Below, piece after piece: positions 29,785 to 63,200 of a stretch of 64,000 nucleotides of DNA. The translations under genes and the position numbers were made by a program. Positions within the stretch are counted from its first letter, which is position 1, and the number at the start of each line of letters is the position of its first letter. The stretch is taken from NCBI GenBank assembly GCA_016206085.1, contig JACQSF010000009.1:9412-73411 (forward strand), read 5' to 3'. Source of the DNA: Candidatus Uhrbacteria bacterium. GTDB taxonomy: Bacteria > Patescibacteriota > Patescibacteriia > UBA9934 > GWF2-40-263. Under the pieces are notes generated by a model that saw nothing but the letters and a program-made list of their open reading frames with translations, was not told the origin of the DNA and made no database searches.

Positions 29785-29817
29785 TCATTTTTCAACCTAA
29801 CCTTCAACCACTTCTAC

Positions 29818-33241: not shown

Positions 33242-33295
33242 ATTGAGAAAATAGTAGCACAAACAAAATGACCCCACTTGAGTGGAGTCCTTTTG

Positions 33296-37505: not shown

Positions 37506-37507
37506 AC

Positions 37508-38720: not shown

Positions 38721-38732
38721 CTCTGTAGTGTA

Positions 38733-40043: not shown

Positions 40044-40046
40044 ACA

Positions 40047-42815
40047 CTATGTTGTTCGCTTGTTTCGCTCTTGTACCAATCGTACCCTTGTCTTTTCCAA
40101 TCGATCTGCCTGTTCCTGAAGTTCTTGGAGTCGTCGACTCTTTTCCTTCGCCGCCTCAAGGCCGGCTTTGCCACCAGCATCATCAATCATCTTCTTTACC
40201 TCGGCCTCAAGCGACGTAATATCTGGACTTCCCTTCATCTCTTCATCCCCTTCCTGTACGACCTTGTCATAGGATGCCTGGAACTTATCTAGTTCTTTTT
40301 GTGCACGAGCAATTTCATTCGCATTTCCTTTTTGTTGCGCAACGGCCAAATTCTTTCGTGCTCTTCGTAATGGCTGGTAGGCTTGCTTACGATCACCTTC
40401 AACAGACTGCTGGATTCTCTTACGAACATCCGCGATCTGCTTCTCTTTATCCGCAATCGTCTTTTCAACCCCTCTGAGTGCCTGAACCTCACCCTCAAGT
40501 GCGGCCACCGCTCCTTGGGCAGCGGTCTTCTCAGATTCGATCTGACTCATGGCTGCATCAATACGCTCACCACTGGACTGGCCGAAATTCTCATCGACAT
40601 AGGTATCAGCCCCTTGTCCGGCAGCTGGAGCTGGAGGCAAGCCAAAGCCTGCTTGTGTTTCCATCGCTGTTCGTGCCGTATCAAAGGCTGTAAGTGAATC
40701 AACAGCCGTCGCATTTCCACCCTTACCCATCTTGTCAGCCGCCGCACGCATACGATCCATCGAGAGCGCCATCTTTTGACGATCTTGGTCAGAAGTTCCA
40801 GCATCCGTGTATTTTGCACGCATCTGCGCGATGACCGCGTCTGCGCTGTCCCTATCATTCATTTGCAGAGCCGCTTCAAATTGTCCTTCCACCTGCGTTC
40901 CAATGTCGAGCTTCGTGACATCCGTTCCCTTCACAGCCGCCTGTTGTGCCTCTATCCCATAATGACCTGCGCGTGCGGCTTCCAGAGCGTTGAGATTCTT
41001 CCCGTCCTTATCCCTAAACGTCGTCCTGATACCAGCGGCACGCCCTTGAACAGCCGAGTCTTCCCAGGCTCCTGCGGCAAGAGCCTTTGTATCATCGGCA
41101 TCCTTAATCCTATCTGTCGAACCAGTAATGTGTGCGTATTTCTTTTTGAAGCTATCAAGCTCAGCCGTCTTGGCAACATTCCCGTTGGACATCTCTGTAT
41201 AGCCTTTTCCTTGAATCGCCCAAAGCTTCTTCATCGCCTCTGGATCTTTCCTCAAAAGATCTTTTTGGAGTCGGCCATCGGCCATCGTCTCTTCAAACAA
41301 TGCGGCCATCTTGTCCTTTCCGGCTTGCGTCTTAGGAGGACTCTTGAGCATGGCTTCAAGCTGACCCTGCTTCCAGTTGCGGTCTTTGTTTTTCATGGCC
41401 TCCTTCTCTTTGTTTACACCGTCAAACTTTGTCGCACGAATCCCTTGTTGAATATCCGCTTGTTTGCCTTTAAAAAAACGACCTATAGCGCCCTCACCCG
41501 CCATATCGGCAACTCGACCAGCCACCGCCGCCTTAGCTCGTGAAGGAATGTTCTGAAAGGCTGCAGGGGCTGGTGGGAGGTATCGAGAAGCTGCTGCAGC
41601 GGCTCCAGGTGTACCAGCAATAGCGCGACCACCAAGTCGTGCTACATATCCACCAGCTTTCAAACCCACGCCAGCCCCAAACCTCGCGACTTTCTCAGGA
41701 CTGAAGGCTTTTGCTGTTTCTAAACGCTTGCCAATAAATCCACCCGCTATTCCCGCGCTACAAAATTGCGATGCGGCCTTAAAACCCGCAAACAACATTC
41801 CCATGCCAATGAGAAAACTCAGAAAGTTGTTCACTTCCAACCAAGAAGCCGTAAAATCGGCATTGTTCGAATTCGCGCTTACGTCAAAGCCTGAATTGGC
41901 CGCAATGTTTCCCGCCCCGGCAACGGCAAGAGTGAGCCATAAGAAAAAAGTAAGAACCGGCCCGATGCCGACAAGACACTTAAACTCTTTCCACCAATCT
42001 TCATACGCATTGGAGTCAATAATGCCTTTGGCTCCCTTCATAAACCACGCCAGAGGGGCGATCACAACCAGCACCCACAACATGATAATGCGAAAGAGTA
42101 AAATCGAAACCAAAATAAGGAGTGTCGCAAAAACCCAAATAGTCAATAAAACAGACAGAACGGCTGAACCAAAAAAATCAAACGCTTGCGAAGCCCCTTG
42201 GGCATTCACCTGCTCAACCCCATCAATAACTGAGCTTGCTTGACTCACTTGATATATTTTATTCAAACCCAACAATTGAATAAAGTTTCCAGCCGCAATC
42301 TCGCGAAGTGCATTGGCGAACGTCAACATGATGACTTGCCCAAAATCAATCATGATGCCGCAAAGGGTTTTAGAAAAATTCACGACGATGGCCATGACCA
42401 GAAGTCTTGGAACTTGCTGCTGCCACTTAAACCGTTCACTTCCAAAAATCGTACCAAACGCGATGATGATCAAGATGACCACAAAAAACATATTCACCGT
42501 GTCGCGCACGATCGCCCACCCGGCTCTCACCACCGGGTTCCCGACAAAATTGTTGTAGGTCATGATCGGTACCATCACATCGATAAGCAAAACGATCCCT
42601 TGCGTAATGGCAGCCGCTATCGTGAAGGCAATGTAGGCAAAACTTTGAACAATACTCTCCACCCATAATGGAGCGGCGTGAACGGGAGTCGGATGCAACA
42701 GCAACGAAAAAACAAACACAATAATTCCAACACGGGCTCGTTTGGTTACGAGATTCTTCGTGCGACTCGAAAGCCACGATTTGAGCGCGAGCAATCGAAG
42801 GACAATCCAAGGCAT
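40047..42815 (-). CDS. VirB6/TrbL-like polytopic membrane protein with long C-terminal coiled-coil/charged region
   Basis: Signal/TM followed by 6-7 TM helices, then about 500 aa Ala/Lys/Glu-rich coiled-coil. Sits first in the operon with virB4. Confidence 0.5.
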   Translation of the reverse strand: MPWIVLRLLALKSWLSSRTKNLVTKRARVGIIVFVFSLLLHPTPVHAAPLWVESIVQSFAYIAFTIAAAITQGIVLLIDVMVPIMTYNNFVGNPVVRAGWAIVRDTVNMFFVVILIIIAFGTIFGSERFKWQQQVPRLLVMAIVVNFSKTLCGIMIDFGQVIMLTFANALREIAAGNFIQLLGLNKIYQVSQASSVIDGVEQVNAQGASQAFDFFGSAVLSVLLTIWVFATLLILVSILLFRIIMLWVLVVIAPLAWFMKGAKGIIDSNAYEDWWKEFKCLVGIGPVLTFFLWLTLAVAGAGNIAANSGFDVSANSNNADFTASWLEVNNFLSFLIGMGMLFAGFKAASQFCSAGIAGGFIGKRLETAKAFSPEKVARFGAGVGLKAGGYVARLGGRAIAGTPGAAAAASRYLPPAPAAFQNIPSRAKAAVAGRVADMAGEGAIGRFFKGKQADIQQGIRATKFDGVNKEKEAMKNKDRNWKQGQLEAMLKSPPKTQAGKDKMAALFEETMADGRLQKDLLRKDPEAMKKLWAIQGKGYTEMSNGNVAKTAELDSFKKKYAHITGSTDRIKDADDTKALAAGAWEDSAVQGRAAGIRTTFRDKDGKNLNALEAARAGHYGIEAQQAAVKGTDVTKLDIGTQVEGQFEAALQMNDRDSADAVIAQMRAKYTDAGTSDQDRQKMALSMDRMRAAADKMGKGGNATAVDSLTAFDTARTAMETQAGFGLPPAPAAGQGADTYVDENFGQSSGERIDAAMSQIESEKTAAQGAVAALEGEVQALRGVEKTIADKEKQIADVRKRIQQSVEGDRKQAYQPLRRARKNLAVAQQKGNANEIARAQKELDKFQASYDKVVQEGDEEMKGSPDITSLEAEVKKMIDDAGGKAGLEAAKEKSRRLQELQEQADRLEKTRVRLVQERNKRTT

Positions 42816-52458: not shown

Positions 52459-52488
52459 AAAAGACGAGCTTCAGAAGCTCGTCTTTTT
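52459..52488. terminator. Bidirectional rho-independent terminator between convergent genes
   Basis: aaaagacgagcttcagaagctcgtcttttt, a perfect 10-bp stem flanked by an A-run and a T-run. Confidence 0.7.
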
Positions 52489-52494
52489 GTGAGC

Positions 52495-55400
52495 TTACTC
52501 AGTTAGAATTTTCACGACCCCATCGTAATTGATCCAAGGATTTACTATCCTACCACTAGAATCTTCACATATACTGTCAGAATTATTTTCAGATGGACAT
52601 TCCTCAATGTTACACTCATCCTGCGTACTACTTCCTATCACTCCCGTATAACACCCCTCGGTCCCATCATCACCTGCCGTACAGTATCCCGTGCACCAAC
52701 CCCAGTTGTCCATCACGTGTACACGGGGCTGGAAGACACAGAAGTCCCCACTCACGCAAGGCGAGTAGATTAGCCTTCCGTCTTCTTCATCAAAGATACA
52801 CTCACGACCTTCCAGCTGCGCCAACCGTCCTGTGGTACAAGTGTAATCATGCGTAAAGGCGATATAAGAACTGCTACAGGCGTTAGATGATTGGCCAAAT
52901 TCATCCGGATCATTGCTGCACTCCTGTGAATCTGAAACGGAATTGAGTCCTCTATAGTTTTTATAGAAATTATTTCGAGCAATTGATCCGCTATAAGAAC
53001 CAAACGGCCATGGATTGGAATTGCCACCAATCCCAGCCATATTATCCCCCCAATCAACAATCACACGCCGGATCGGCATTTGATCCGAGTCCGCATAGGC
53101 ATAAAACGCTACCGTTACATGCTTGGATCCCTCGCCTTCAATATCGGCACTATCAACTTCATTCACAGAGAACTTGTTTTTCACTCCCTCGTAGCAAAGC
53201 GTTCCCTCACACTCGCCAATGGAAACGATCGTTGGAGCCTTATCTTCTGGATTATCTTGAGCGCTTGCTCGTGTGTCCCAAATCCAATCAGAGAAACTTG
53301 TTTCAAAATTATCTGTGTCAAAATCAAATCGTTCGAAGTCTCCCAGCGGTTCACGATCCGTAAAGATTGTTTCGTTTGTCGGGATGACTCCGGTGTCCAC
53401 CTCCCCGTATCCGTCATCGGTAAACTCAACAATACCGTAAATGCGTCCGAAGATCTGAGAAAGAAGCCCTATGGCATCCCCTTTTGAACCAACGGATAAC
53501 GCATACACTGGGGCATCATCATTTGCAATACAGGTCGCGCCCGATAACTGACGACTCCCATCTGTCGAATACGAACCATGGCAATAGTTGACCCAGCAGG
53601 TCTGATCTCCTTCACATGCCAGTCCATCATAGGAACCCCCCACACAGGTCCCAGCGGCACAGGCTCCATCAACGCCTTCATCCTCACAGGTATCATCCAC
53701 CCCATCTTCATTCGCGTCGATAAACGAACAGCTAATACTGTTGTCATTCTCACAATACCCGCCGCCACAATACACAGCCGCACCCGAACTGCTGTTCCAA
53801 TTGCACCATTGCTCATTTTCTTCACCGCTATCATTGCAATCACAATCAACATTCAAACAATAGCTTGAAATCACATCCGTCTGTACTGTCAATGAAACAT
53901 CCCTATTGGCTCGTGCATCTTCCCCACTACTGCTCGTCACCACGTCTCCCGAATCGCAAACTAAATCGACAGGTGGTAGCTCCTGTCCATAACCCTCAAC
54001 AAGACACATGGCCAATACCCAGGGTTCTGGGTCTCTCTCTAATTTAAGCGAAAGATAATCCGTCGCAATCCCATAGGGGGACTGTAACGAGCCGAATTGG
54101 TAGCCTAAGAAACTTGGATTGGAACTTGAAAGAGGTTGCGTGTTACTTTCATGATCCCAGAGCTTGTTTGTCCATGCCGCATTATACGTATCAAACGGGA
54201 GAACCTGCTCATCTTGAGTGGATTTTGCAGACACTTGAACCACGCTTGTGCAAACAGCACCAGGAACAAAATTATTATTCAAATTCCGAAATCCTTTTCC
54301 CGAGAGAGCTCCTCCCGCATCATAGGTTGAAAGCAGAAAGTCAACACCCCCTCCTGTATATTCACTATAACTAAACGCTTCGGCTCCTTCACTGAGAACC
54401 CCCCGCGCTTCACAATCGTCATAATAATCAACCGCCGTATCAAAATCTGTCGGAGGCAAAACGTACACACGGATATTTGGTGCGGCTAATCCCGCCCAAT
54501 GATCGCCCACCGAATTCACATTTAGGTAGTAGGCTCCCGTGGGTGCATCCGCGTCATTGTTCGCAGTAAACGGGGACGACTCGACGGTGATCCCTAATGC
54601 GGCATCCGGGGTCAAACACGTATCTCCGGACACTCCTCTATCATCATCTTGAGTTTTATAGGAAAGTTTTGGAACACAGAAATAGGGACAGTCTTTATCA
54701 CCGGAAGCCGTACATTCATTGTTTGTGTCATTTGACCCACAACCCGTCATCACAGCGAAGAATCCATCAGGACACCAAACAGCGGCAACACAATCATCTT
54801 GAGAATCTCTTGAATTATCCGCTTCATTGCTGAAATGTTGCCAATCGGAACCGTCATTACAGTTGTTATCTTGTACTTCCGCACAGGCGATCTCACTTGT
54901 TCCAACGGTGTATCCTAACTCCACCTCCGCACAGTAATACGTGTCCTGTGGTTGGTATCCAGCGGACGTATACTTTGCGTAGAGGTCTGTGGCGCCCGTA
55001 AGCTGGTCAACAGGAAGCCACGTTAAACAGGCTTGATCCTCTGGCGCGGATGAACCAAGCGTTTGGATCGATGAATCTTTTTCAATACAGTAGCCATTCC
55101 ATCCGTACACGGAATCAACACGGCTCACATAGGAACAGATGCCGGATTGCGTCGTTTTTCCGTCGGTACTCGTAAAAGAACAGTCGTCATCATCTTGGCA
55201 GGGAATTCCATTCACAGGACCGCCTGAACAAATTCCCTCGGGAACATCGGCAACTCCTGTCCCTAGTTCAAAGTATCGATAGCCTGTCCCGTCTCCATAT
55301 TCCGCCTTATCATAAGAACAAATACAATCAACAGGATTGCCAGAAGCATCTATCGCACAAGTGGTTGAATCCTGGAACCCATTAACGTAGCTATAGGGAA

Positions 55401-58400
55401 GAGCCGCCTGGCTGGTTGGAGGATTGACCTTTGAGTTGGAGTCAGAAGAAACAGGACTTTCTCCATCTGCCTCAATGTTCTCCGCTGTGTATTGAATCCA
55501 GTACTGCACCACATCCGTCGGGAACGGCGAATCAATCTCTGGATAGGCCCGACAGGACTGTTCACGAGCATCATCCACCTCAAGACGATCCGCAAAACCG
55601 TCACCATTTACGTCCAGAATATCTGTCAAACAGCGATCGTTGAAACAAGAACCCGTTGTTGATGTTGAGGCTGGAACACAGGTGCGATTGGAGGAGTCTG
55701 TCACGCAGGCGTCACGATATAACACATTTGTCGTCAGCTCATCCACACAGACAAACCCAATAGGATCACAAATCAATGTCGAAATGCCGCTGGACGATGT
55801 CACGCCGGAGCAATCCGCATTTGTTCCGTTCCCTTCGTTTTCGTCAGGATTACAGGAACAATCTTCATCACAACCCACCGTCCCCGTTGCTTGCAAGTAT
55901 CCAACCACACAGGACTCTCCATCTGAACAGTCGTCATCACTTGCACAGGAGACCGCGGAATCCTCACAATGCCCGATCACACAAGATCCCCCGTTTCCGT
56001 CCCCAGACTCCGTCGAGTCACAGGGTCCCGCGTTATAGACCAGTCGGTAGTCTGTTTCATTTGAATTTTCGCAGGCGAAATAGCACTGCCCGCTTGCCCG
56101 GTCGCACACGCCAGAAGCGTGACCACTGTTGCTCGTACAATCTGAATCAGTCGAGCAGCGTGCGGAGCTATCCAATGGACAATCCGCATACGACCCGCAC
56201 GCGCGTGGAAGCGTCGTATCCCCTTGAGTAATATAAGCTGATCCGGTGAGTGCCACTCCTGATGAATTGACACACACTGACTGGGCGGCAATGTTGTACT
56301 GGTCGTACAACTCAACTGGGAGCTGGTTTGGAATCGCATTTCCCGAATACTCATACCCCGTCCAACTTACATCGCGGACGGAATAGTGATACGCAGAAAG
56401 AATCGATGGGTCACTCTGATCCCATTGAGAACAAATTGCACGGTCTCCCTGCTGTTGTCCTTCCACACACAAGTTAATCGAATCACAAATCGTGTCATAC
56501 GTGTTGGTTTGTGTGTTCCAACTGGTGCGCGAACTCTCGCAAGAAAGCCATGCCGCACAGCTACGATCACGATTCACTTTTATCACCTCATTGGTGTCGT
56601 CCTCCAGAGCATAGGCATCAACAACATCGGTACAGGTTCCGCTCACATCTTCTCCCTTATAGGTAGTGAGAAGGCCACAGTCGGAATCAACAAAGCAGGA
56701 GCCATTGTAATAGACTGTATCTACCGCCCCCTGCTCTGAACCTGTTGTTGTGAGCTGATCCCCACTCTCAACCGTGTAGGCACAACGCCTGGCACAAAGA
56801 TCAACTTCTGTTCCTGTCCCGGCAATCGCCGCGTCGGCATCGGAAATCGTGAATACCCCACCGTCTTGTGTCGTACAACTAATCGGATCCACGAGATCGT
56901 TCATTTCTGTTCCGTAGAACACATCCGCATGGGTCGAAAGTACGTAGCTGGCGGAGGCATGGTAGGTTAATTCTGAAACAGTCGTATTATTAAAAAGGGC
57001 ACATCCAAACTTCTGACTCACTTGGCCGTTACAACGTTGCGAGTCCGTGAGCGTGTCTTCACTCAACAGATCGTCGTTGGTGAAATAATAGGACTGGCCG
57101 TCTTCATTGAGGCCTCCACCCGTGTCAACGACATCAATAAACTCGGTACACAAATCATACTTACTGCTACAACTTGCAACCCATCCATCATAGAAATCCC
57201 AATAGTCTGTGTCGCCATCGTCCTGGTCTCCATTATTCCAAACCCCAAATTCCTCGCCCGCAATCAAGTACGCTTCATCCTCATCCTGATCATAGACCCC
57301 ATCCCCATCTTTATCTTCCCAGTAACACGGTTCGTTTGTTCCGGTTCGGAACCACCCGAAGTAGGAACGGTTGTTGATCGTCACGCTGGTCTTGTATTCA
57401 CATTCTTTATCAAGCGGATCTTTAAAATAGAAATTCCCGTCTTGTGTTGACGCCCACTCCTCGCAGAACAAGGCTTCTTGATCGCACAAAATACTGTCGT
57501 AATCCGCAGGTAAGTTGATGTAATACACCGACTCAAAACTCTCCACTTCACGTTGGTCTTGCGTGTAGGTTGGTTTACCAAGCTCCTGACACCCCATCGC
57601 GCTGGAAGCACATTGATCGCTCTCATCCGCAACAATGTACACAGGCGTATCACCCGGAACAATCACGGTCTCCGAACCATACACGACGGCATAATACTCG
57701 CTGGAACTTACCTCCTCCACAGGGAGATCTCCTGGGAACGCCTGATCGGCATCAAAAAGACAGTAACTCTCTCCCACGATAATCGTGCAGTATTCAATCT
57801 CGTTGATCTTACACGCGGTGTTTCTAGTGACCACATCATCGTCTGTAAAATCCGTGTCTGAGGAATACATGCACCTGGCGTTGTACACCTGCGTGTAAGG
57901 CGAATCTGAATTGGCCGTGTGATAAAACCCCTCGCATCCCACAACCTCTTCTGAACACAGATCTGAAAACTGATACAGATCAACCGCACTCCCGTTATGA
58001 TCCGTGTAGGCTTCACAACCCAGGTAGTATTGGTCTGAATCAACACCTTCTGGCGTTTGATCACAGGTCGACGGAACCACCCAGGAATTTTTTATGATCG
58101 TAATATTCTCTTCGACCTGCTTGAGGGTGACGTTATCAAGATAAAACTCCATTTCCGCATCCGTGGCAAAACGGACTACCGCATTCTCATCAAAATCTGC
58201 ATAGGCGGACGTATCCACGGGTCCAAGGGAATAGAGAACCCACGATCCATCCAGGGCAACAGGAGTGAGATCGGAAACACCGCTGTTTGGATCGACGAAG
58301 TCATGTACGTCTCCCGCTCCTCCTTGCTCCCCAAACGTCACGTAGAGATTCCCATTTCCCTTGGCCCAAAAATCCAACACAAACGTCTTTCCCGCCACAA

Positions 58401-61400
58401 GATACCCCGTCAGAGCCCCACAACTCTCTTGTCCATCCAAGACGGAACAATCTTCATCGTCTGAACCATCCCCATCAATATCATCGGCGATATCGCATCC
58501 GCTATCGCCAATGGTTCCTCCATTACTCGTACAGGTCGTCGAAGTTCCTGCTGCGTCTCCAGCTTCATCATAGATCTCCGTTGTCACGGTAGAATCAAGA
58601 TAGATCTGTGTCGTTTCAATTCCTGCCATTCCACTTGAAGGAGCAAGGACATACAAAGAATGTCCTTCAGTCGCGACAGACTCATTGCTGATCGAAATTT
58701 CATCCGGATAATTCCCAATTTCTGCCATGACAAAATCTTCGTAGGTCCCTCCTTCAAATGTTTCCGAAAGGATCGTGGTCGCGTTGCGACCGGTCCCTCC
58801 TGTATATTCGCGGCAGCCGTTTTGTTCGGCCGGACAATCAACGCTCTCCTCAGGTAGGACATAATAACGACAGAATCCTTGGTCAGTCCACCATCCACCT
58901 GAATCCTCACAATCCGTTTCTTCACTTTCATCTTTTCGATAGGCAGAACACGCGTCTGAAATAGAAATCGTGTCTGAGTACTGACGGTAATGGATATTCC
59001 CTTTCGTATCGAAAAACTCCCGACAATCTGGATTGTTAAAAATATCATCATGCTCATCGCAGTCCTCGTTTGTCCAGACATCTGCCGTCAAATTTGCAGA
59101 GGTATCATCACACACGACCACATTTTCAGACGTCATCTGACGATGGGTACACGGGGCAAGATCAATCGCAAGTTCGGTGTATCCACTTGAGACAAACGTC
59201 TGACTCCCGGATGCGCTATTTGACTGCAACAGAGACCATGTTTGCAACTGGTAGCCTTCGTTGTCTGATCCTTCCCAGGTGAAATACGTCGCGGGTGTTT
59301 TGTTGGTGGCTGTGGCGTCCGCAATGTCAGGGCTCAAACAGAATCGAAGATCTGTATAGTATTCAATCCCCTCACCTCCCGCGTCAACGGCTCCGAGGTT
59401 TGTATACGAATCACATCCTACGTACTGCGATGCGCACACGCTTGCGCTGTCGGCGATAAAGTAGAGTGGGAATGACTCACGTTCAAAATCCGTGGCTTCT
59501 TGTTTGTACGTTGTGTACCCAACACACTCACTTGGACACGTATCAAGATCCGAGATAATCGCCGGCACATTCGGATCTCCGTCCTCTGGTGTGTACAGAC
59601 GACACCCTACTTCCTGTGCGGTACACACCTGGGCATACGAGTCACATTCCTCTGGATCTGTATCGTTTCCCGTGCATCCCAAGTAGCTTGGGGCAACCTG
59701 GTAGTACACTTGTGTCGGAGTACCGCTGTACCCCTCCGCAAAGATATTTGCATCTTCCCCAAGTTCGAGTTGCACCGCATCGATGTACACTTCATCAGAA
59801 GAGTAGAACGAAGAATTTCCGACTCCCACGCGAATCTGAACCGTTCCTTCCGGCGCAGTCACAAGACACTCAAATCGTTCAAAATCAGCCGTATCTGGTT
59901 CTTCAACCATCAGATACAAGTTAAACACACTGCTCCACTCACAATCTCCAGAAGACGATGTCCCGGAAGCATCAATGGAATTTCCGTCTTCATCTAAAAA
60001 GAGGAGGAGACCCACACCGCTATCACCCGATGTCTGTGCCTGAAAATAGGTACTGAAGGTATAAAAATTATTCTCAGAGGCACTGATATCCTGATAGAGA
60101 TAATTCAGGGTGCCTGCAGAATAGAGAAGTGAAGTCGACCCAAACTCTGAATTGCTTGTATCAAGCGTGTATCCTCCTGCTGTCAACGGAACCCATCCAT
60201 CAGGCGTTCCATCCGCGTCCTCATCCTCCTCAAACGAAGGATTCTGCACGCTGTTGAGATACACCGTCTCATCGAACTCATACAATTGGGTACAACCGAC
60301 ATCATTCTCACTACATTGTGTCGCGTCATTGGTGAGATAGAGACGATCCTCATAGGCATACTGTTCATACGTATACGTTTCACCAGAATCAGAAGTATAG
60401 ACGTACGATGTTCGTCCCACTGATCCACTCCCATCCCAGTAATTCCAATCCACGTCTCGCTCTTCTAGAAGATACTCATCTCCTGTGGCAAGCCATTCAT
60501 ACGTATCATCTTCTGTGTCCGTCGTCCCCGCATCCTCAAGATACTTATTTGTACGGTACCAACGACACCCAGCATTATCCTGATCACAGACACTGTAGTT
60601 CACCGTACTCACAAGAAAATCTCCATCGTCCCCTGTTTGGGTATTCGTAAACGAAAGACAGGTGGCGTACTGTGCCGGACACTCGTCGCCACGGAACCGC
60701 CAGACGTTCTTCTCCTGGGTGCAGTACCCATAGCCATCAACACAATTTCCCTTGTTATCCTCCCCAATACAACTTGGTGAATCAACACACGTCGTGTTGC
60801 GCCCGCTGGAAAGCGTTGAAATACGGATCTCGCCGTTGCCCACAGCGCGACATTCTGTTTTTGGATATTTCAAGACCCAGTTTGGATCAATGAGATGACA
60901 CCACTTGCTGTCAGAATCCGACGTGCTTGCCGACCCAATGGTTCCCTCTTGCGTACAATCATTGAACCCATCGATCACTTCTTGGAGCGTGGCGGGATTG
61001 GATTCACTGTTGCGACTTGCAGCCAACTCCCATCCAATCGGGAGCACGCGCGCTTTGCGCAGCTTCACAAGGTTTCCGTAGCAATACCCGTAGGTATAAC
61101 AAAACGGATCTTGGTTGGCGGCTTCGTTGTCAGGCGCAATGAGTGGCCAATCTCCATCAAGCAACCCCTCATCAATCGCCTCTTGCACCGTTAACGGGAC
61201 ACCGGCAGTTCCACGATTCACGGCTGCCAAAAAGTTCACGTCCATGACACAGTTATAGAGTCCTCGGTTGATCGTTCCTTGTGCTGTACACACAACAAAC
61301 TCGGAAAGCGCATCATACTCGGTCGTGGCGATTGGATTTGTTGTGATGATCGACGCAAATCGTTCCTGCGCCGCCTCCCTGTCCCCGGCTCCGACCGCTT

Positions 61401-62460
61401 CCAGGTCAAACGGATCGACGACCTCAGTATCAAACAATCCGGTATAAATTCGGTTAAGAAGCTGGGACAACAAGACGTTTGTAAAGGTCGACGCGGTCGA
61501 AAGGGCAAGACCCCCAATGAGATCTCCGGCGTTAGCAAGCTCGCCAACACGAATTTGAGAATCATCCCCTTTTGCTTTCTTGAGTGCCTCCTCAAAATCC
61601 GCTTGGAGCGTTTCAGAAGGTGTTTTAACCGTTCCCGTAATAAAGTCCTTTACGTTTTTATAGGTACTCTCGTTGCGCTCCAAAAACTGAAGCAATTTCT
61701 GTTCGTGAACTTTCTGGTCAATGGCGATATTAATACGTAACGTCGCTGTCAATTCGTTTTGACCCGGTTTAAGAGCACTGGCAAATGTTTTTAGAATTGC
61801 TTCCTGTCTTCCTTCTGGATCGAGATATTTCTGATAAATATCTGCTCCAAATTTCTCCCAATTACCCAGAACCTCCATGAAGTCACATTTGGGCTCGCTG
61901 GGTTGATACTTTTGTTTGATTCCCAATGAAAGAGCAAGTTGAAGGCTCTGGGAGGATGGTTGACACAGATCAAATTCAATTCCTAATTTGCTGGAAGAAA
62001 GTTGAGACATACTCCCAATCGCCTCTCCTGCGACTTCCAACCCCAACTGACCAAACGCTTCCGATGGAGTCTGATTGTAAAACAACGAGTCCTCACCAGG
62101 ACCACCCGAAGCAATCGCCACGGCTGCCTCGTAAGCAAGGCGGTTGAGCACAAACTGAGAAAGATTCAGCAGAGCCTGAATGAGCGCAATACGAAATGTC
62201 GGAGACAAAATCTTTTCTCCGACAATCTGCAAACTCTGTTTGATTCCTTTTTGTGGACACGGGACGGGGGAGGGACCACCAGACGTACATCCTCCTTCCG
62301 CGGCACCAGCTGCCAACTCCCCAGCCGCAATGGCCGCGGAATCCACGGCGTAGACCGGTTGCACAAAAGAAAAAATACCGACAACCAAAAATACTCCTAC
62401 ACACAAAGACAAAACTCCGGCCACGAACCATCGTTTGTGTTTGTGCCAGAACAGTCTCAT
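52495..62460 (-). CDS. Giant (3321 aa) secreted/surface protein, Cys-, Asp-, Gly-, Thr- and Ser-rich
   Basis: Uninterrupted 9.97 kb ORF. N-terminal signal/TM (FVAGVLSLCVGVFLVVGIFSF). Hundreds of Cys in CxxC/CxnC spacings, DGDG/DxDxDG motifs. No recognisable enzymatic motif. Confidence 0.7.
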   Translation of the reverse strand: MRLFWHKHKRWFVAGVLSLCVGVFLVVGIFSFVQPVYAVDSAAIAAGELAAGAAEGGCTSGGPSPVPCPQKGIKQSLQIVGEKILSPTFRIALIQALLNLSQFVLNRLAYEAAVAIASGGPGEDSLFYNQTPSEAFGQLGLEVAGEAIGSMSQLSSSKLGIEFDLCQPSSQSLQLALSLGIKQKYQPSEPKCDFMEVLGNWEKFGADIYQKYLDPEGRQEAILKTFASALKPGQNELTATLRINIAIDQKVHEQKLLQFLERNESTYKNVKDFITGTVKTPSETLQADFEEALKKAKGDDSQIRVGELANAGDLIGGLALSTASTFTNVLLSQLLNRIYTGLFDTEVVDPFDLEAVGAGDREAAQERFASIITTNPIATTEYDALSEFVVCTAQGTINRGLYNCVMDVNFLAAVNRGTAGVPLTVQEAIDEGLLDGDWPLIAPDNEAANQDPFCYTYGYCYGNLVKLRKARVLPIGWELAASRNSESNPATLQEVIDGFNDCTQEGTIGSASTSDSDSKWCHLIDPNWVLKYPKTECRAVGNGEIRISTLSSGRNTTCVDSPSCIGEDNKGNCVDGYGYCTQEKNVWRFRGDECPAQYATCLSFTNTQTGDDGDFLVSTVNYSVCDQDNAGCRWYRTNKYLEDAGTTDTEDDTYEWLATGDEYLLEERDVDWNYWDGSGSVGRTSYVYTSDSGETYTYEQYAYEDRLYLTNDATQCSENDVGCTQLYEFDETVYLNSVQNPSFEEDEDADGTPDGWVPLTAGGYTLDTSNSEFGSTSLLYSAGTLNYLYQDISASENNFYTFSTYFQAQTSGDSGVGLLLFLDEDGNSIDASGTSSSGDCEWSSVFNLYLMVEEPDTADFERFECLVTAPEGTVQIRVGVGNSSFYSSDEVYIDAVQLELGEDANIFAEGYSGTPTQVYYQVAPSYLGCTGNDTDPEECDSYAQVCTAQEVGCRLYTPEDGDPNVPAIISDLDTCPSECVGYTTYKQEATDFERESFPLYFIADSASVCASQYVGCDSYTNLGAVDAGGEGIEYYTDLRFCLSPDIADATATNKTPATYFTWEGSDNEGYQLQTWSLLQSNSASGSQTFVSSGYTELAIDLAPCTHRQMTSENVVVCDDTSANLTADVWTNEDCDEHDDIFNNPDCREFFDTKGNIHYRQYSDTISISDACSAYRKDESEETDCEDSGGWWTDQGFCRYYVLPEESVDCPAEQNGCREYTGGTGRNATTILSETFEGGTYEDFVMAEIGNYPDEISISNESVATEGHSLYVLAPSSGMAGIETTQIYLDSTVTTEIYDEAGDAAGTSTTCTSNGGTIGDSGCDIADDIDGDGSDDEDCSVLDGQESCGALTGYLVAGKTFVLDFWAKGNGNLYVTFGEQGGAGDVHDFVDPNSGVSDLTPVALDGSWVLYSLGPVDTSAYADFDENAVVRFATDAEMEFYLDNVTLKQVEENITIIKNSWVVPSTCDQTPEGVDSDQYYLGCEAYTDHNGSAVDLYQFSDLCSEEVVGCEGFYHTANSDSPYTQVYNARCMYSSDTDFTDDDVVTRNTACKINEIEYCTIIVGESYCLFDADQAFPGDLPVEEVSSSEYYAVVYGSETVIVPGDTPVYIVADESDQCASSAMGCQELGKPTYTQDQREVESFESVYYINLPADYDSILCDQEALFCEEWASTQDGNFYFKDPLDKECEYKTSVTINNRSYFGWFRTGTNEPCYWEDKDGDGVYDQDEDEAYLIAGEEFGVWNNGDQDDGDTDYWDFYDGWVASCSSKYDLCTEFIDVVDTGGGLNEDGQSYYFTNDDLLSEDTLTDSQRCNGQVSQKFGCALFNNTTVSELTYHASASYVLSTHADVFYGTEMNDLVDPISCTTQDGGVFTISDADAAIAGTGTEVDLCARRCAYTVESGDQLTTTGSEQGAVDTVYYNGSCFVDSDCGLLTTYKGEDVSGTCTDVVDAYALEDDTNEVIKVNRDRSCAAWLSCESSRTSWNTQTNTYDTICDSINLCVEGQQQGDRAICSQWDQSDPSILSAYHYSVRDVSWTGYEYSGNAIPNQLPVELYDQYNIAAQSVCVNSSGVALTGSAYITQGDTTLPRACGSYADCPLDSSARCSTDSDCTSNSGHASGVCDRASGQCYFACENSNETDYRLVYNAGPCDSTESGDGNGGSCVIGHCEDSAVSCASDDDCSDGESCVVGYLQATGTVGCDEDCSCNPDENEGNGTNADCSGVTSSSGISTLICDPIGFVCVDELTTNVLYRDACVTDSSNRTCVPASTSTTGSCFNDRCLTDILDVNGDGFADRLEVDDAREQSCRAYPEIDSPFPTDVVQYWIQYTAENIEADGESPVSSDSNSKVNPPTSQAALPYSYVNGFQDSTTCAIDASGNPVDCICSYDKAEYGDGTGYRYFELGTGVADVPEGICSGGPVNGIPCQDDDDCSFTSTDGKTTQSGICSYVSRVDSVYGWNGYCIEKDSSIQTLGSSAPEDQACLTWLPVDQLTGATDLYAKYTSAGYQPQDTYYCAEVELGYTVGTSEIACAEVQDNNCNDGSDWQHFSNEADNSRDSQDDCVAAVWCPDGFFAVMTGCGSNDTNNECTASGDKDCPYFCVPKLSYKTQDDDRGVSGDTCLTPDAALGITVESSPFTANNDADAPTGAYYLNVNSVGDHWAGLAAPNIRVYVLPPTDFDTAVDYYDDCEARGVLSEGAEAFSYSEYTGGGVDFLLSTYDAGGALSGKGFRNLNNNFVPGAVCTSVVQVSAKSTQDEQVLPFDTYNAAWTNKLWDHESNTQPLSSSNPSFLGYQFGSLQSPYGIATDYLSLKLERDPEPWVLAMCLVEGYGQELPPVDLVCDSGDVVTSSSGEDARANRDVSLTVQTDVISSYCLNVDCDCNDSGEENEQWCNWNSSSGAAVYCGGGYCENDNSISCSFIDANEDGVDDTCEDEGVDGACAAGTCVGGSYDGLACEGDQTCWVNYCHGSYSTDGSRQLSGATCIANDDAPVYALSVGSKGDAIGLLSQIFGRIYGIVEFTDDGYGEVDTGVIPTNETIFTDREPLGDFERFDFDTDNFETSFSDWIWDTRASAQDNPEDKAPTIVSIGECEGTLCYEGVKNKFSVNEVDSADIEGEGSKHVTVAFYAYADSDQMPIRRVIVDWGDNMAGIGGNSNPWPFGSYSGSIARNNFYKNYRGLNSVSDSQECSNDPDEFGQSSNACSSSYIAFTHDYTCTTGRLAQLEGRECIFDEEDGRLIYSPCVSGDFCVFQPRVHVMDNWGWCTGYCTAGDDGTEGCYTGVIGSSTQDECNIEECPSENNSDSICEDSSGRIVNPWINYDGVVKILTE

Positions 62461-62462
62461 AC

Positions 62463-63155
62463 CTACGGTGATGTTGTTAGATATTCATCCAGGAGTCCAG
62501 ACTCGGAAGCTTCCCCAAGTGCCCCGTAAAAAAATGCTTTGAGTGTTTCATCATCGATCTGGTCAAGTTCTTCCTGGGTCATTCCAGACTCCAGAAGCGC
62601 GGCGCGGATCTGATCCATGGTTGCCTGTTGAAAAAAGTTCGCCACGTCTTCTTCTGATTCAAATGTCACGCTTCCCGCATCCAACAGATCGCCCTCCCCC
62701 ACCAGTCCTTCAATGAACGCATCGGCAGCGGACGTTTCAGCCACGGCCTCTGCCGATCCAGAAATACGTCCACAATTTTGTCCAGTAGGACAGTTCGGAT
62801 TGTTCCCTGAGTACACTTCTTCCTGATCGCTAAAACCATCGGAATCAGAGTCGACAATATAGGGCGATGTTTTGTACACGTAGAGTTCGTCGTAATCGAC
62901 AAGCCCATCTTGATCCGTATCATTTGTTTTGGACTCCTCCAGTTCCCGTGCCTCGCGCGCGTCGGAGGTTAAAAATTCTTCCCCGGTGTAGAACGCCGCA
63001 ATTTGTTCTTGAATTGGTCTCATCATGTTGATGCCAAACGACTGAGCGCCAAATGCCACACCGCCCAGACCCAAAAACATCAAAAGACCAAAAGCAACCT
63101 TTTGCTCAGTCGATAGAGGCGAGGCTGGCTTAAGTCTCAACCGTTGTGTAGCCAT
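62463..63155 (-). CDS. Membrane-anchored protein with Ca-binding-like DxDxDG repeats (thrombospondin-type-3 / dockerin-like)
   Basis: TM helix AFGLLMFLGLGGVAFG. DTDQDGLVDYDE and DSDSDGFSDQEE motifs. Start taken at MATQRL (the listed ORF starts at a GTG inside the upstream hairpin). Immediately precedes the giant gene. Confidence 0.45.
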   Translation of the reverse strand: MATQRLRLKPASPLSTEQKVAFGLLMFLGLGGVAFGAQSFGINMMRPIQEQIAAFYTGEEFLTSDAREARELEESKTNDTDQDGLVDYDELYVYKTSPYIVDSDSDGFSDQEEVYSGNNPNCPTGQNCGRISGSAEAVAETSAADAFIEGLVGEGDLLDAGSVTFESEEDVANFFQQATMDQIRAALLESGMTQEELDQIDDETLKAFFYGALGEASESGLLDEYLTTSP

Positions 63156-63170
63156 GAGACTATTATAGCA

Positions 63171-63200
63171 AAACACCTGAGGTTAACCCAGGTGTTTTTT
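63171..63200. terminator. Hairpin (cacctgaggttaacccaggtg) with flanking A/T runs, overlapping the rsmA stop
   Basis: Seen directly. T-tract is weak on the minus strand (4 T), stronger on the plus strand (6 T). Confidence 0.35.

What the first reader, a model, noticed from the sequence alone, without database searches (positions are those of the whole stretch)
52495..63155. A 3321-aa Cys/Asp-rich giant surface protein co-oriented with a Ca-binding-repeat membrane protein
A single 9.97 kb ORF is about 15% of this window. It has an N-terminal signal anchor and a very high Cys content in regular spacings. It also has abundant DxDG-type acidic motifs, Thr/Ser/Gly-rich stretches, and no catalytic signature.

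It is preceded, 2 nt apart on the same strand, by a small TM protein with thrombospondin-type-3/dockerin-like DxDxDG repeats. It is terminated by a perfect bidirectional terminator.

Giant extracellular proteins of this kind are candidates for host-cell attachment in episymbionts. The composition (many disulfides plus Ca2+-binding motifs) suggests a rigid extended fibre.
Basis: partly seen in the sequence, partly recalled or inferred. Interest (0 to 1): 0.55.

Follow-up and report, generated by a model that had tools for sequence, protein, structure and literature searches.

The report
Giant disulfide-locked surface protein beside T4SS
This 3321-residue gene of a tiny groundwater bacterium (Candidatus Uhrbacteria) encodes a real, secreted protein held together by about 75 disulfide bonds; it is always paired with a small calcium-site membrane protein, and in most related lineages it sits directly in front of a type IV secretion system, which makes it a candidate for that machine's undiscovered cell-contact part.

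Summary
The ORF is real: window 52495-62460 (-), 3321 aa, 151 Cys, identical to a "hypothetical protein" of Candidatus Uhrbacteria. It belongs to a large, uncharacterised family found so far only in Patescibacteria (1236 representative proteins, one per 50%-identity cluster).

It is secreted. The signal-peptidase site is conserved (Ala at -1 in 105/113). 111 of 151 Cys are at least 90% conserved. The mature Cys count is even in 97/99 homologs.

It is not repetitive. It has two CBM_4_9-like jelly rolls. Its core domain models confidently but matches no known fold. A ~450-aa region near the C-terminus is hypervariable.

The small TM protein with two TSP3 Ca-site motifs lies directly upstream in 76/81 loci, behind a conserved extended -10 promoter.

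In a sister lineage labelled Kerfeldbacteria the giant is split into two proteins. Each has an odd Cys count, which implies one disulfide between them.

In 28/33 related metagenomic loci a family gene lies upstream of a monoderm-type T4SS module, co-oriented and mostly within 1.5 kb. The window carries that module ~10 kb downstream.

Best reading (~0.5): a Ca-tethered contact or adhesion arm of the patescibacterial T4SS. "Abundant DxDG", "signal anchor" and "fibre" are not supported.

The parts
62463..63155 (-). Small partner gene, 230 aa. It has an N-terminal single TM segment (about aa 20-38), two TSP3-type motifs (DTDQDGLVDYDE at aa 79, DSDSDGFSDQEE at aa 102), a conserved NPxC...C loop, and a variable acidic helical tail.
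   Evidence: 73 orthologs with a median of 231 aa; 59/73 have two motifs. It lies directly upstream of the giant in 76/81 loci.
63162..63170 (-). Extended -10 promoter, TGCTATAAT. It ends 6 nt before the ATG of the small gene, which implies a leaderless or near-leaderless mRNA.
   Evidence: Read directly from the sequence. TTTTG[CTA]TATAAT recurs 7-17 nt upstream of the small-gene ATG in most of the listed orthologous loci; by pattern match 37/72 have an extended -10 and 45/72 a -10-like hexamer. The sigma-70 scan, which needs a -35 element, reports nothing.
63173..63195 (-). Hairpin spanning the ksgA stop codon and followed by UUUU. It is terminator-like and separates ksgA from the small-giant transcription unit.
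   Evidence: dG -17.1 kcal/mol, z -4.35. Similar CCTAGG-type hairpins precede the promoter in orthologous loci.
62347..62460 (-). Signal peptide of the giant (aa 1-38). It has a K/R-rich n-region, a 22-aa hydrophobic core, and the site VYA|VD.
   Evidence: KD hydropathy 2.73, and no other TM segment. A/V/T at -3 in 98/113, Ala at -1 in 105/113.
61330..62346 (-). N-terminal Cys-poor domain (aa 39-377). It is predicted all-helical, with two moderately hydrophobic helices (aa 87-109 and 314-332).
   Evidence: helices, but pLDDT only 30-50; hydropathy; conserved at 0.4-0.54 identity. No fold or family match.
60847..61329 (-). Confidently modelled alpha/beta subdomain (aa 378-538). It is the most conserved stretch of the N-terminal region (YCYGNLVKLRKARxxPIGWELAA).
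   Evidence: pLDDT 76-93; identity up to 0.74. It is shared with the Kerfeldbacteria protein P0137.
59746..60258 (-). Jelly roll 1 (aa 735-905), CBM_4_9-like. It begins with a conserved FExDEDxDGxPDxW loop.
   Evidence: CBM_4_9 hits in 14/15 homologs, best E 2e-9, at aa 743-892 and 710-854 in two of them. Weak PDB CBM hit, 2zew, E 0.01. The window protein itself has no Pfam hit.
58774..59745 (-). Core domain (aa 906-1229; confident part 984-1219). It is beta-rich and disulfide-rich, and is the region best conserved between the Uhrbacteria family and the shorter sister-lineage family.
   Evidence: mean pLDDT 80.2, pTM 0.69, above 90 for aa 984-1219. Foldseek best E 0.13 with TM at most 0.11 against PDB, and best E 0.054 against BFVD. 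K1 scores 216.8 bits over this block.
58096..58773 (-). Jelly roll 2 (aa 1230-1455), homologous to jelly roll 1. It carries an inserted four-Cys acidic loop (aa 1310-1347).
   Evidence: hhalign of JR1 against JR2: probability 90%, E 1.4e-6. The CBM_4_9 hit lies at the corresponding place in the K1 protein P0140.
56881..58095 (-). The rest of the K1-equivalent half (aa 1456-1860). It contains further CX6C hairpin motifs and the K1/K3 fusion junction (about aa 1838-1860).
   Evidence: Family HMM: K1 covers positions 63-1766 and K3 covers 1788-2952.
54664..56880 (-). Conserved part of the K3-equivalent half (aa 1861-2599). It holds small Cys-rich modules and conserved blocks (RDRxCxxWLxC; GWxGYCxExD...ACLTWLPVDQL).
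53311..54663 (-). Hypervariable region (aa 2600-3050).
   Evidence: family identity 0.09-0.25 and gaps 0.2-0.6; 26-50% identity per 100-aa window over aa 2601-3000 even against the closest relatives, which are 75-93% identical in the N-terminal half.
52495..53310 (-). Conserved C-terminal domain (aa 3051-3321) plus the stop codon. Motifs: QMPIRxIxVDWGD and PRVHVxDNWGWCTG. It has no LPXTG motif and no C-terminal hydrophobic anchor.
52459..52487 (.). Bidirectional intrinsic-terminator-like palindrome between the giant and the convergent lipoprotein ORF.
34921..42815 (-). Monoderm-type T4SS module, on the same strand and ~10 kb downstream. Genes:
- polytopic membrane protein in the VirB6 position (40047-42815)
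- 436-aa ORF (38733-40043)
- PrgI/VirB3-like (38196-38720)
- TrsD-like (37508-38230)
- VirB4 ATPase (35499-37505)
- TM ORF (34921-35502)

Its association with the giant is inferred from related loci.
   Evidence: - VirB4: PDB 4ag5 E 6.7e-44; NF045971 334.4 bits, at or above the cut-off of 325.
- PrgI: PF12666, 37.5 bits, above 27.
- The VirB6 assignment rests on 6-7 TM segments and position only.
- Linkage.
27849..28505 (+). Membrane-anchored DsbA-like thioredoxin-fold protein with a CEPC active site. It lies next to a VirB2-like pilin/NlpC-P60 gene (28510-29784). It is a candidate oxidase for the extracytoplasmic disulfides.
   Evidence: Thioredoxin_4 E 8e-21, DSBA E 4e-15, T4SS_pilin E 5e-7. 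N-terminal TM segment and the CEPC motif.

Best explanation
The ORF encodes a Sec-exported, extremely acidic, non-repetitive multidomain protein. Its roughly 150 mature cysteines are all paired, giving about 75 disulfides.

It is made from its own two-gene operon. That unit has a conserved extended -10 promoter, a leaderless-type start, a 2-nt stop/start junction and a strong terminator. The other gene encodes a single-pass membrane protein with two TSP3-type Ca2+ sites facing outwards.

Proposed mechanism: the small protein holds the secreted giant at the cell surface. The giant's conserved, disulfide-locked scaffold presents two lectin-like jelly rolls and a fast-evolving ~450-aa region to the outside. 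The assembly serves as the cell-contact or adhesion arm of the patescibacterial monoderm-type T4SS. It stabilises contact with a partner (host) cell or substrate so that the T4SS can move its cargo.

Shown here: export, the oxidised state, the obligate gene pairing, the fusion/split relationship with a two-protein version, and the genomic linkage to T4SS genes.

Inferred: tethering through the small protein, dependence on Ca2+, glycan or host binding, and any functional dependence on the T4SS.
For: Export and oxidation:
- Conserved signal peptide with an AxA site.
- 111/151 Cys at least 90% conserved.
- Even mature Cys count in 97/99 homologs, p = 1.6e-26.
- A TM-anchored DsbA-like CEPC protein is encoded in the window.

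Pairing with the small protein:
- It lies upstream in 76/81 loci.
- The stop-to-start gap is -1 to 6 nt in 53/69.
- The promoter is conserved.
- The same pairing holds in the sister family.

A complex rather than a lone enzyme:
- In loci of the sister lineage labelled Kerfeldbacteria the giant is split into K1 (HMM positions 63-1766, E 5e-160) and K3 (1788-2952, E about 1e-27).
- K1 has an odd Cys count in 20/20 proteins and K3 in 5/5 loci. This implies one K1-K3 disulfide.
- An Ig/fn3-rich secreted protein, K2, is encoded between them.

Outward-facing elements:
- CBM_4_9-like jelly rolls.
- The hypervariable region.

T4SS link:
- K3 is followed, at -4 to +1 nt, by a polytopic membrane protein homologous to window ORF 40047-42815. 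That ORF heads a PrgI-TrsD-VirB4 module.
- In 28/33 metagenomic loci centred on that gene, a family ORF lies upstream on the same strand. It is within 200 nt in 10/27 and within 1.5 kb in 23/27.

Literature:
- Monoderm T4SSs rely on surface adhesins.
- No PrgB-like adhesin was detected in Patescibacteria.
- ABY1 T4SS loci include comF, recG and radA, as this window does (PMC12102498).
Against: - In this window the giant operon and the T4SS module are ~10 kb apart. They are separated by a strong terminator, convergent genes, SerS and an M23 peptidase, so here they are separate transcription units.
- Conserved gene order in streamlined genomes need not mean shared function. ksgA is just as constant a neighbour.
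- Five of 33 VirB6-position loci lack the family.
- The 'VirB6-like' protein has no HMM or PDB support.
- There is no homology to any known adhesin, no sortase or SLH anchor, and no binding assay.
- The window protein itself does not reach any CBM threshold.
- Most of the protein could not be modelled. The N-terminal 340 aa have pLDDT 30-50, and aa 1241-3321 were not modelled at all.
Confidence: 0.5

Rival explanations
1. A surface adhesin or an S-layer-like envelope component that works independently of the T4SS. The small TM protein would be the membrane stalk and the giant an outer canopy or lattice subunit, analogous to SlaB/SlaA of Sulfolobales. It would protect the cell or mediate general attachment.
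For: - It is lineage-wide and apparently single-copy. There is no paralog in the window, and the best 80 genome hits are 78 distinct loci.
- It sits at a fixed chromosomal position among housekeeping genes.
- A consensus promoter and a strong terminator fit an abundant structural protein.
- Its composition is acidic and poor in Lys, Met and His.
- Conserved domains plus one hypervariable exposed region is a pattern also seen in S-layer proteins (my knowledge).
- In this genome it is transcriptionally separate from the T4SS genes.
Against: - No SLH, CWB2 or other S-layer family hit.
- Bacterial S-layer proteins are typically Cys-free (my knowledge), whereas this one has 150.
- There is operon-level coupling to the VirB6-position gene in many lineages: K3 to K4 at -4 to +1 nt in 5/5 loci, and a gap of 200 nt or less in 10/27 loci.
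- Self-assembly could not be tested.
Confidence: 0.3
2. A secreted enzyme or toxin complex whose catalytic domain is too divergent to recognise, for example one that degrades polysaccharide or host cell wall. The CBM-like modules would target the substrate.
For: - CBM_4_9 modules usually accompany glycoside hydrolases (my knowledge).
- There are many invariant polar residues in conserved blocks, e.g. E478, E583, R1147/E1148/D1151/H1157, E2460/D2462.
- The core domain has no known fold relative, so a new catalytic fold cannot be excluded.
- Peptidoglycan hydrolase genes (M23, NlpC/P60) lie nearby.
Against: - No catalytic family was detected in the window protein or in 15 homologs, nor by the family profile against PDB.
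- Most invariant positions are Cys, Gly, Trp or Pro, i.e. structural residues.
- The C-terminus is conserved rather than polymorphic, unlike polymorphic toxins.
- Obligate pairing with a membrane protein argues for retention at the surface.
Confidence: 0.08
3. The giant itself is the extracellular conduit or translocon of the T4SS. It would replace a pilus, and its N-terminal amphipathic helical domain would insert into the partner's membrane.
For: - Genomic coupling to the membrane channel genes.
- A conserved 340-aa helical N-terminal domain with moderately hydrophobic helices models poorly on its own, as membrane-active or oligomeric domains often do.
- No relaxase or known adhesin in these systems (PMC12102498).
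Against: - The window also encodes a VirB2-like pilin.
- There is no evidence of oligomerisation or of a pore.
- The helices reach only KD 1.2-1.3, below the TM range.
- The low pLDDT may simply reflect a shallow alignment.
Confidence: 0.1
4. Artefact or pseudogene: a chance ORF, a misassembly, or a decaying gene.
For: None found.
Against: - 100% identical to a deposited protein.
- About 120 full-length collinear homologs at 35-71% identity.
- 448 confirmed stretches among GTDB species representatives.
- Conserved Cys framework and Cys-count parity.
Confidence: 0.01

Closest known systems
Surface adhesins encoded in Gram-positive conjugative T4SS operons (PrgA/PrgB/PrgC of Enterococcus pCF10, MPF_FATA class)
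   Same: - Large secreted surface proteins encoded immediately upstream of, and co-oriented with, the VirB6/PrgH, PrgI and VirB4/PrgJ channel genes.
- The T4SS here is of the same monoderm class. VirB4 passes the NF045971 cut-off and PrgI passes the Pfam cut-off.
- Monoderm T4SSs depend on such adhesins for cell contact (PMC12102498).
   Different: - No sequence or domain homology to PrgB. The cited study also found none in Patescibacteria.
- No LPXTG or sortase anchor.
- Three times larger than PrgB, with about 75 disulfides.
- Partnered with a TSP3-motif membrane protein.
- Chromosomal and vertically inherited, with no plasmid or phage homologs.
- In this window it lies 10 kb from the channel genes.
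Large cysteine-rich extracellular proteins of Peribacteria (CPR), Anantharaman et al. 2016, PeerJ (PMC4736985)
   Same: - The same phenomenon in a related radiation: very large proteins bearing signal peptides, with several per cent Cys and no functional annotation.
- They were proposed to act in attachment.
   Different: - A different lineage and, as far as tested, a different family. Homology was not tested.
- Those occur as a 14-gene cluster of proteins of about 1655 aa. This one is a single conserved 3300-aa orthologue with a fixed partner, a fixed locus and a T4SS linkage.
Giant Ca2+-rigidified adhesins of Gram-negative bacteria (RTX/BIg-repeat adhesins such as LapA, SiiE, MpIBP)
   Same: Giant size, an acidic character, a surface location and a proposed adhesive role.
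   Different: - Those are built from tens of tandem Ig-like repeats, are exported by a T1SS through a C-terminal RTX signal, and lack cysteines (my knowledge).
- This protein has no internal repeats, uses a Sec signal peptide, is stabilised by disulfides, and has only one conserved Ca-type loop.
Two-component archaeal S-layers (SlaA canopy plus SlaB membrane stalk of Sulfolobales)
   Same: A small membrane-anchored protein is co-encoded with a very large secreted outer protein. The resemblance is an analogy of architecture only.
   Different: No homology. Lattice formation is untested. This system is Cys-rich and T4SS-linked.
Bacterial TSP3-repeat proteins (Pfam PF18884; Myxococcus MtsD and CglD)
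   Same: The small protein carries two DxDxDGxxDxxE motifs. It gives weak hits to TSP3_bac, MtsD and CglD.
   Different: - Only two motifs, and the score is below the curated cut-offs (23.6 against 25 bits; 23.3 against 800).
- The overall architecture is unrelated: TM segment, two motifs, a Cys loop and an acidic helical tail.

Membership tests
Gram-positive T4SS-operon surface adhesins (PrgB type) | Encoded with, and upstream of, the T4SS channel genes (VirB6/PrgH, PrgI, VirB4) | tested here: inconclusive
   Met in relatives: 28/33 loci, with gaps of 200 nt or less in 10/27, and K3 to K4 at -4 to +1 nt in 5/5. In this window the two blocks are ~10 kb apart and separated by a terminator.
Gram-positive T4SS-operon surface adhesins (PrgB type) | LPXTG sortase signal with a C-terminal hydrophobic anchor | tested here: not met
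   The C-terminus ...NPWINYDGVVKILTE has no LPXTG motif. There is no hydrophobic segment after aa 47.
Gram-positive T4SS-operon surface adhesins (PrgB type) | Homology to PrgB adhesin or polymer-adhesin domains | tested here: not met
   No Pfam or NCBIfam hit. No plasmid homolog among 72,556 records. PMC12102498 reports no PrgB in Patescibacteria.
Gram-positive T4SS-operon surface adhesins (PrgB type) | Mediates cell aggregation or mating-pair formation | not testable with these tools
   Needs experiments.
CBM_4_9 (PF02018) carbohydrate-binding module | Pfam score at or above the gathering threshold (25.9 bits) | tested here: inconclusive
   The window protein has no hit even at E = 1. Homologs do: 14/15 at E of 0.5 or less, best 2e-9. 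P0045 scores 30.9 bits and P0140 35.9 bits, both above the cut-off; P0015 scores 25.4, below it. The family profile hits PDB CBM 2zew at E 0.01.
CBM_4_9 (PF02018) carbohydrate-binding module | Binds a carbohydrate ligand | not testable with these tools
   Needs glycan arrays with recombinant jelly rolls.
TSP3_bac (PF18884), small partner protein | Pfam score at or above 25 bits | tested here: not met
   23.6 bits, E 4.8e-5, one stretch.
TSP3_bac (PF18884), small partner protein | DxDxDGxxDxxE Ca-site motif conserved | tested here: met
   There are two motifs in the window protein and two in 59/73 orthologs.
RTX / BIg-repeat giant adhesins | Tandem Ig-like repeats, RTX nonapeptides and a C-terminal T1SS signal | tested here: not met
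   No internal repeat by self-BLAST. The only internal homology by hhalign is JR1 to JR2. No Pfam repeat family. It has an N-terminal Sec signal.
Bacterial S-layer proteins | SLH, CWB2 or another recognised S-layer anchoring or lattice domain | tested here: not met
   No such hit in Pfam or NCBIfam.
Bacterial S-layer proteins | Self-assembles into a 2-D lattice and is a dominant cell protein | not testable with these tools
   Needs cryo-ET or proteomics.
Monoderm (MPF_FATA-like) T4SS of Patescibacteria, neighbouring module | VirB4 ATPase of the monoderm clade plus PrgI/VirB3 | tested here: met
   NF045971 (CD1110-family VirB4): 334.4 bits, at or above 325. PDB 4ag5: E 6.7e-44. PrgI PF12666: 37.5 bits, above 27.
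Monoderm (MPF_FATA-like) T4SS of Patescibacteria, neighbouring module | VirB6/PrgH homolog recognised by HMM | tested here: not met
   ORF 40047-42815 has 6-7 TM segments and the right position. It has no Pfam, NCBIfam or PDB-profile hit.
Large Cys-rich extracellular CPR proteins (Peribacteria type, PMC4736985) | Large size, a signal peptide, several per cent Cys, and no annotation | tested here: met
   Sequence homology to the Peribacteria proteins was not tested.

The most novel reading that the evidence does not exclude
The small-TM/giant pair (split into K1 and K3, with K2, in the sister lineage) is the long-sought extracellular part of the patescibacterial T4SS. It would not be merely an adhesin. 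It would be a disulfide-locked, Ca-tethered docking structure or conduit built from folds without known relatives. That structure would bridge the ultra-small cell to its host, with the hypervariable region setting host range.
Probability: 0.15. Interest if true: 0.9.

Novelty: new variant of a known kind. Interest (0 to 1): 0.68.

Why it matters
Patescibacteria (CPR) are a large share of bacterial diversity, and the cultivated examples live attached to other cells. How they attach is poorly known. The T4SS is essential for epibiotic growth in the one lineage tested genetically, and a 2025 survey of T4SS genes across the phylum found no adhesin (PMC12102498).

This locus offers a concrete and widespread candidate: 1236 representative proteins, one per 50%-identity cluster. 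Its properties are testable. It has a conserved partner protein, an all-disulfide scaffold, two lectin-like modules, a hypervariable patch that could set partner specificity, and a natural split/fusion pair that predicts one specific inter-subunit disulfide.

The core domain models confidently but matches nothing in the PDB, so it may be a new fold.

A genome of roughly 1 Mb (my knowledge; the longest contigs seen here are about 0.8 Mb) spends about 1% of its DNA on this one gene.

Tried and rejected
- **Direct family searches on the giant.** Pfam, NCBIfam and PHROGs gave nothing. The terminator and promoter consensus scans missed both real-looking signals because of their rules, so I read and folded the sequence instead.
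- **Full-length family profile against PDB sequences.** Only weak CBM hits.
- **AF2 of aa 39-735 with 34 rows.** Poor result, pLDDT 52, and its Foldseek matches are meaningless, all E > 1.
- **AF2 of the core.** This worked, but Foldseek against PDB and BFVD found no relative. The norovirus P-domain hits (E 0.13-1, TM at most 0.11) were rejected as chance.
- **Self-BLAST for repeats.** None. 'Tandem-repeat fibre' is therefore rejected.
- **mafft --add of the K proteins onto the family alignment.** It smeared them globally and was discarded. HMM domain coordinates were used instead.
- **Lipocone superfamily lead for the helical N-domain.** The paper concerns Omnitrophota giants, not this family.
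- **Literature searches.** Uhrbacteria with cysteine-rich, large protein or metaproteome found nothing on this family.
- **Plasmid and phage collections.** No homolog, so a recent mobile-element origin is rejected.
- **VirB6 assignment.** Confirmation was tried by Pfam, NCBIfam and PDB profile and failed. It is kept only as 'VirB6-position'.
- **K1 sub-sequences from loci.** Full K1 rows were used instead.

Full report
**1. The observation**

The window has one uninterrupted ORF at 52495-62460 on the minus strand. It is 3321 aa long and takes 15.6% of the window. It is identical to the NCBI [quoted passage not shown]. It aligns end to end with about 120 listed homologs of 3000-3400 aa at 35-71% identity. 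It is therefore neither a chance ORF nor a pseudogene.

Composition:
- 151 Cys (4.55%)
- D 9.9%, S 9.5%, G 9.0%, T 7.8%
- K 2.0%, M 0.5%, H 0.7%
- net charge -403

Pfam, NCBIfam and PHROGs give no hit for the window protein.

A small ORF on the same strand ends 2 nt before the giant's ATG. Its true start is the ATG at 63155. It has one TM segment and two DxDxDGxxDxxE motifs. TSP3_bac scores 23.6 bits, just below the cut-off of 25.

The palindrome at 52459-52487 folds as a perfect 13-bp stem on both strands, flanked by A and T runs. The energies are -17.3 and -18.2 kcal/mol, with z -5.9 and -4.5.

- D.DG occurs 6 times, against about 3 expected by my estimate, and DxDxDG 3 times.
- There is no periodic Cys spacing and no internal repeat. 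There is only a short recurrent C-x6-C-xx-[YFW] hairpin motif, about ten copies between aa 594 and 1771.
- The N-terminal hydrophobic segment is followed by a family-conserved signal-peptidase site. Position -3 is A/V/T in 98/113 and position -1 is Ala in 105/113. A cleaved signal peptide is more likely than an anchor. No other TM segment exists.

**2. A secreted, fully oxidised, non-repetitive protein**

In a 120-member alignment, 111 of the 151 cysteines are at least 90% conserved, although overall identity falls to 35%.

After removal of the signal peptide, which contains C20, the window protein has 150 Cys. Among 99 homologs complete at both ends, 97 have an even mature Cys count, ranging from 120 to 156 (binomial p = 1.6e-26). 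This is strong evidence that every cysteine is paired, and hence that the protein lives in an oxidising extracytoplasmic place.

The window also encodes a membrane-anchored DsbA-like protein with a CEPC motif at 27849-28505.

**3. Anatomy**

- aa 1-38: signal peptide.
- aa 39-377: Cys-poor and predicted all-helical, but with low confidence (pLDDT 30-50).
- aa 378-538: a confidently modelled alpha/beta subdomain, pLDDT 76-93.
- Two jelly rolls, aa 735-905 and 1230-1455, homologous to each other (hhalign 90%, E 1.4e-6). They are CBM_4_9-like in 14/15 homologs (best 2e-9; positions). The family profile gives a weak PDB CBM match.
- A core domain between the jelly rolls. It modelled well: mean pLDDT 80.2, pTM 0.69, and above 90 for aa 984-1219. 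Foldseek found no relative in PDB (best E 0.13, TM at most 0.11) or in BFVD (best E 0.054).
- Further conserved Cys-rich blocks up to about aa 2600.
- aa 2600-3050: a hypervariable region. Per 100-aa window over aa 2601-3000 it is only 26-50% identical even to the closest relatives, which are 75-93% identical over the N-terminal half.
- aa 3051-3321: a conserved C-terminal domain without LPXTG or a hydrophobic anchor.

This is a chain of different globular domains. It is not a repeat-built rod.

**4. An obligate partner and a dedicated operon**

The small protein's gene lies immediately upstream of the giant in 76 of 81 loci. The other five are contigs that start inside the gene.

The distance from its stop to the giant's start is -1 to 6 nt in 53/69 loci. 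That spacing suggests translational coupling.

Upstream of the small gene, a hairpin spans the ksgA stop codon (dG -17.1). It is followed by TTTTGCTATAAT, an extended -10 element that ends 6 nt before the ATG.

The same TTTTG[CTA]TATAAT element sits 7-17 nt before the start codon in most of the listed orthologous loci. By pattern match, 37/72 have an extended -10 and 45/72 a -10-like hexamer.

The two genes thus form their own unit, apparently leaderless, bounded by hairpins. The wider synteny GroEL-PrfA-epimerase-Sua5-KsgA-small-giant is conserved.

**5. Distribution and a natural split**

- The genome scan confirmed 448 stretches in GTDB species representatives. The best 80 carry Uhrbacteria, Patescibacteria-group or Parcubacteria labels, apart from placeholder or apparently mislabelled titles.
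- A profile of the core domain found 1236 representative proteins (one per 50%-identity cluster), 1072 of them at E of 1e-30 or less. Most of the 150 listed are about 1800-3900 aa long.
- Named members are Patescibacteria and Kerfeldbacteria.
- No homolog exists in 72,556 plasmids or 50,697 phages.

A sister family of about 1850 aa occurs in a lineage labelled Kerfeldbacteria. It shares the same ksgA-small upstream context. It is followed by three more genes for signal-peptide proteins.

- K1 matches family-HMM positions 63-1766 (E 5e-160).
- K3 matches positions 1788-2952, collinear with the giant's C-terminal half (E 1e-18 to 1e-29).
- K2, between them, is unrelated and rich in Ig/fn3-like domains.

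The Uhrbacteria giant is therefore K1 fused to K3. The junction lies near aa 1838-1860.

K1 has an odd Cys count in 20/20 proteins, and K3 in 5/5 loci. Their sum is even, like the fused protein. The simplest reading is one intermolecular K1-K3 disulfide that becomes intramolecular in the fusion.

**6. Link to a type IV secretion system**

The gene after K3, at -4 to +1 nt in all five loci, encodes a polytopic membrane protein. It is homologous to window ORF 40047-42815 (E 2.5e-22; 6-7 TM segments).

In the window that ORF heads a co-oriented module:
- a 436-aa ORF
- PrgI/VirB3-like (PF12666, 37.5 bits, above the cut-off of 27)
- a TrsD-like ORF
- a VirB4 ATPase (NF045971 334.4 bits, at or above 325; PDB 4ag5 E 6.7e-44)
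- a TM ORF

ComF, tRNAs, RecG and RadA follow. A VirB2-like pilin/NlpC-P60 gene lies next to the DsbA-like gene. This matches the ABY1-class T4SS context described in PMC12102498.

I scanned metagenomes with the membrane protein. In 28 of 33 loci with at least 8 kb of upstream sequence, a family ORF lies upstream on the same strand. It is mostly one fused ORF of 2400-3100 aa, with E of 1e-140 to 1e-300. The gap is 200 nt or less in 10/27 and 1.5 kb or less in 23/27. The longer gaps hold a conserved ORF of about 210-250 aa. In several loci ksgA-small-giant-membrane protein-...-VirB4 is contiguous.

In the window the two blocks are about 10 kb apart. They are separated by the terminator, a convergent lipoprotein ORF, SerS, an M23 peptidase and other genes.

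**7. Mechanism proposed**

Shown:
- Export through Sec and complete disulfide pairing.
- Co-production with a single-pass membrane protein that carries two Ca-site motifs.
- Equivalence to a covalent K1-K3 heterodimer.
- Conserved genomic, and in many lineages operonic, linkage to monoderm-type T4SS genes.

Inferred:
- The small protein tethers the giant at the membrane, probably with Ca2+.
- The scaffold displays two lectin-like jelly rolls and a hypervariable patch.
- The assembly acts as the contact or adhesion arm of the T4SS.

Monoderm T4SSs need surface adhesins, and no PrgB-like adhesin was detected in Patescibacteria (PMC12102498). My confidence in the whole statement is about 0.5. My confidence in [quoted passage not shown] is about 0.85.

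**8. Rivals**

- A T4SS-independent adhesin or S-layer-like envelope component: about 0.3. Arguments for it are the fixed housekeeping locus, the consensus promoter, the transcriptional separation in this genome, and the fact that ksgA is an equally constant but clearly unrelated neighbour.
- The giant as the conduit or translocon itself: about 0.1.
- An unrecognised enzyme or toxin: about 0.08.
- An artefact: about 0.01.

**9. Comparison and novelty**

The nearest functional analogue is the adhesin set of Gram-positive conjugation operons (PrgA, PrgB, PrgC). There is no homology to it, no sortase signal, and a different partner. The nearest described phenomenon is the set of large Cys-rich extracellular proteins of Peribacteria, which were suggested to act in attachment (PMC4736985).

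I found no paper on this family or on its T4SS linkage in the searchable library. I therefore rate it a new variant of a known kind. The core fold has no PDB or BFVD relative. AFDB could not be searched.

**10. Limits**

- Only aa 39-735 (poorly) and 905-1240 (well) were modelled.
- The 'VirB6-like' label rests on topology and position alone.
- Taxonomy of the metagenomic loci is unknown.
- Single-copy status and universality could not be checked on whole genomes.
- No binding, localisation or expression data exist.

Noticed in passing
window 34253-42815 (-), 27849-31137 (+), 31163-33277 (-): A complete ABY1-type T4SS/competence neighbourhood. Genes, in order:
- VirB6-position membrane protein
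- 436-aa ORF
- PrgI
- TrsD-like ORF
- VirB4
- TM ORF
- ComF
- tRNA-Ser (two), tRNA-Arg
- RecG
- RadA
- VirB2-like pilin fused to NlpC/P60
- DsbA-like protein

No relaxase or coupling protein was seen among the ORFs scanned.
   Followed up: yes
window 12000-20000: A block with GC 0.60-0.66, against 0.47-0.55 elsewhere. It carries YchF GTPase, an enolase-superfamily protein, a GCS2-like ORF and a TyrRS/TrpRS-class tRNA synthetase. The ORFs 17377-19221 and 18798-20129 overlap by about 420 nt. This could be horizontal acquisition or a chimeric assembly.
   Followed up: partly
window 51776-52402 (+): A convergent 208-aa acidic ORF with a lipoprotein-type start (...LAFVVGCGNS). It shares the bidirectional terminator with the giant. 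tblastn detects it in only 13 of 81 loci. Small lipoprotein ORFs also turn up between the giant and the T4SS genes in several metagenomic loci.
   Followed up: partly
window 51022-51546 (+); L143, L167: An ORF with a PaaX_M (Cas2-like) domain just downstream of the giant. It has homologs in the giant-to-VirB6 gap of two metagenomic loci (E 2e-11 and 6e-20). Its role is unknown.
   Followed up: partly
L097, L113, L118, L120, L127, L133, L135, L151, L152, L163, L168 (gap between the giant and the VirB6-position gene): A conserved ORF of about 210-250 aa on the + strand, starting M.LDEQLL, sits between the giant and the membrane protein in many related loci. tblastn finds no homolog in this window.
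   Followed up: partly
L084-L088 (sister-lineage, Kerfeldbacteria-like loci), K2 genes e.g. L084:15634-19785: A secreted protein of 1326-1419 aa with Big_7, Glucodextran_B, fn3 and BNR-type hits is encoded between K1 and K3. The family HMM does not match it, and tblastn finds no K2 homolog in this window. Its Cys count is usually even (12, 12, 18, 18, 19).
   Followed up: partly
L008, L013, L020, L028 and about 20 other loci: Many GTDB records that carry this Uhrbacteria-type gene are titled 'uncultured Gammaproteobacteria bacterium' (TPA assemblies). This looks like placeholder or wrong taxonomy in the record titles.
   Followed up: no
window 42963-44921 (-): A 652-aa M23 peptidase lies directly upstream of the VirB6-position gene. 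LysM-M23 peptidases also flank the sister-lineage (Kerfeldbacteria-like) loci. It could be the VirB1-like wall hydrolase of the T4SS.
   Followed up: partly
window 63153-63170 (-): The -10 box lies only 6 nt before the start codon, and no Shine-Dalgarno sequence is visible there or before the giant's ATG. This suggests leaderless initiation for the small gene and termination-reinitiation for the giant.
   Followed up: partly
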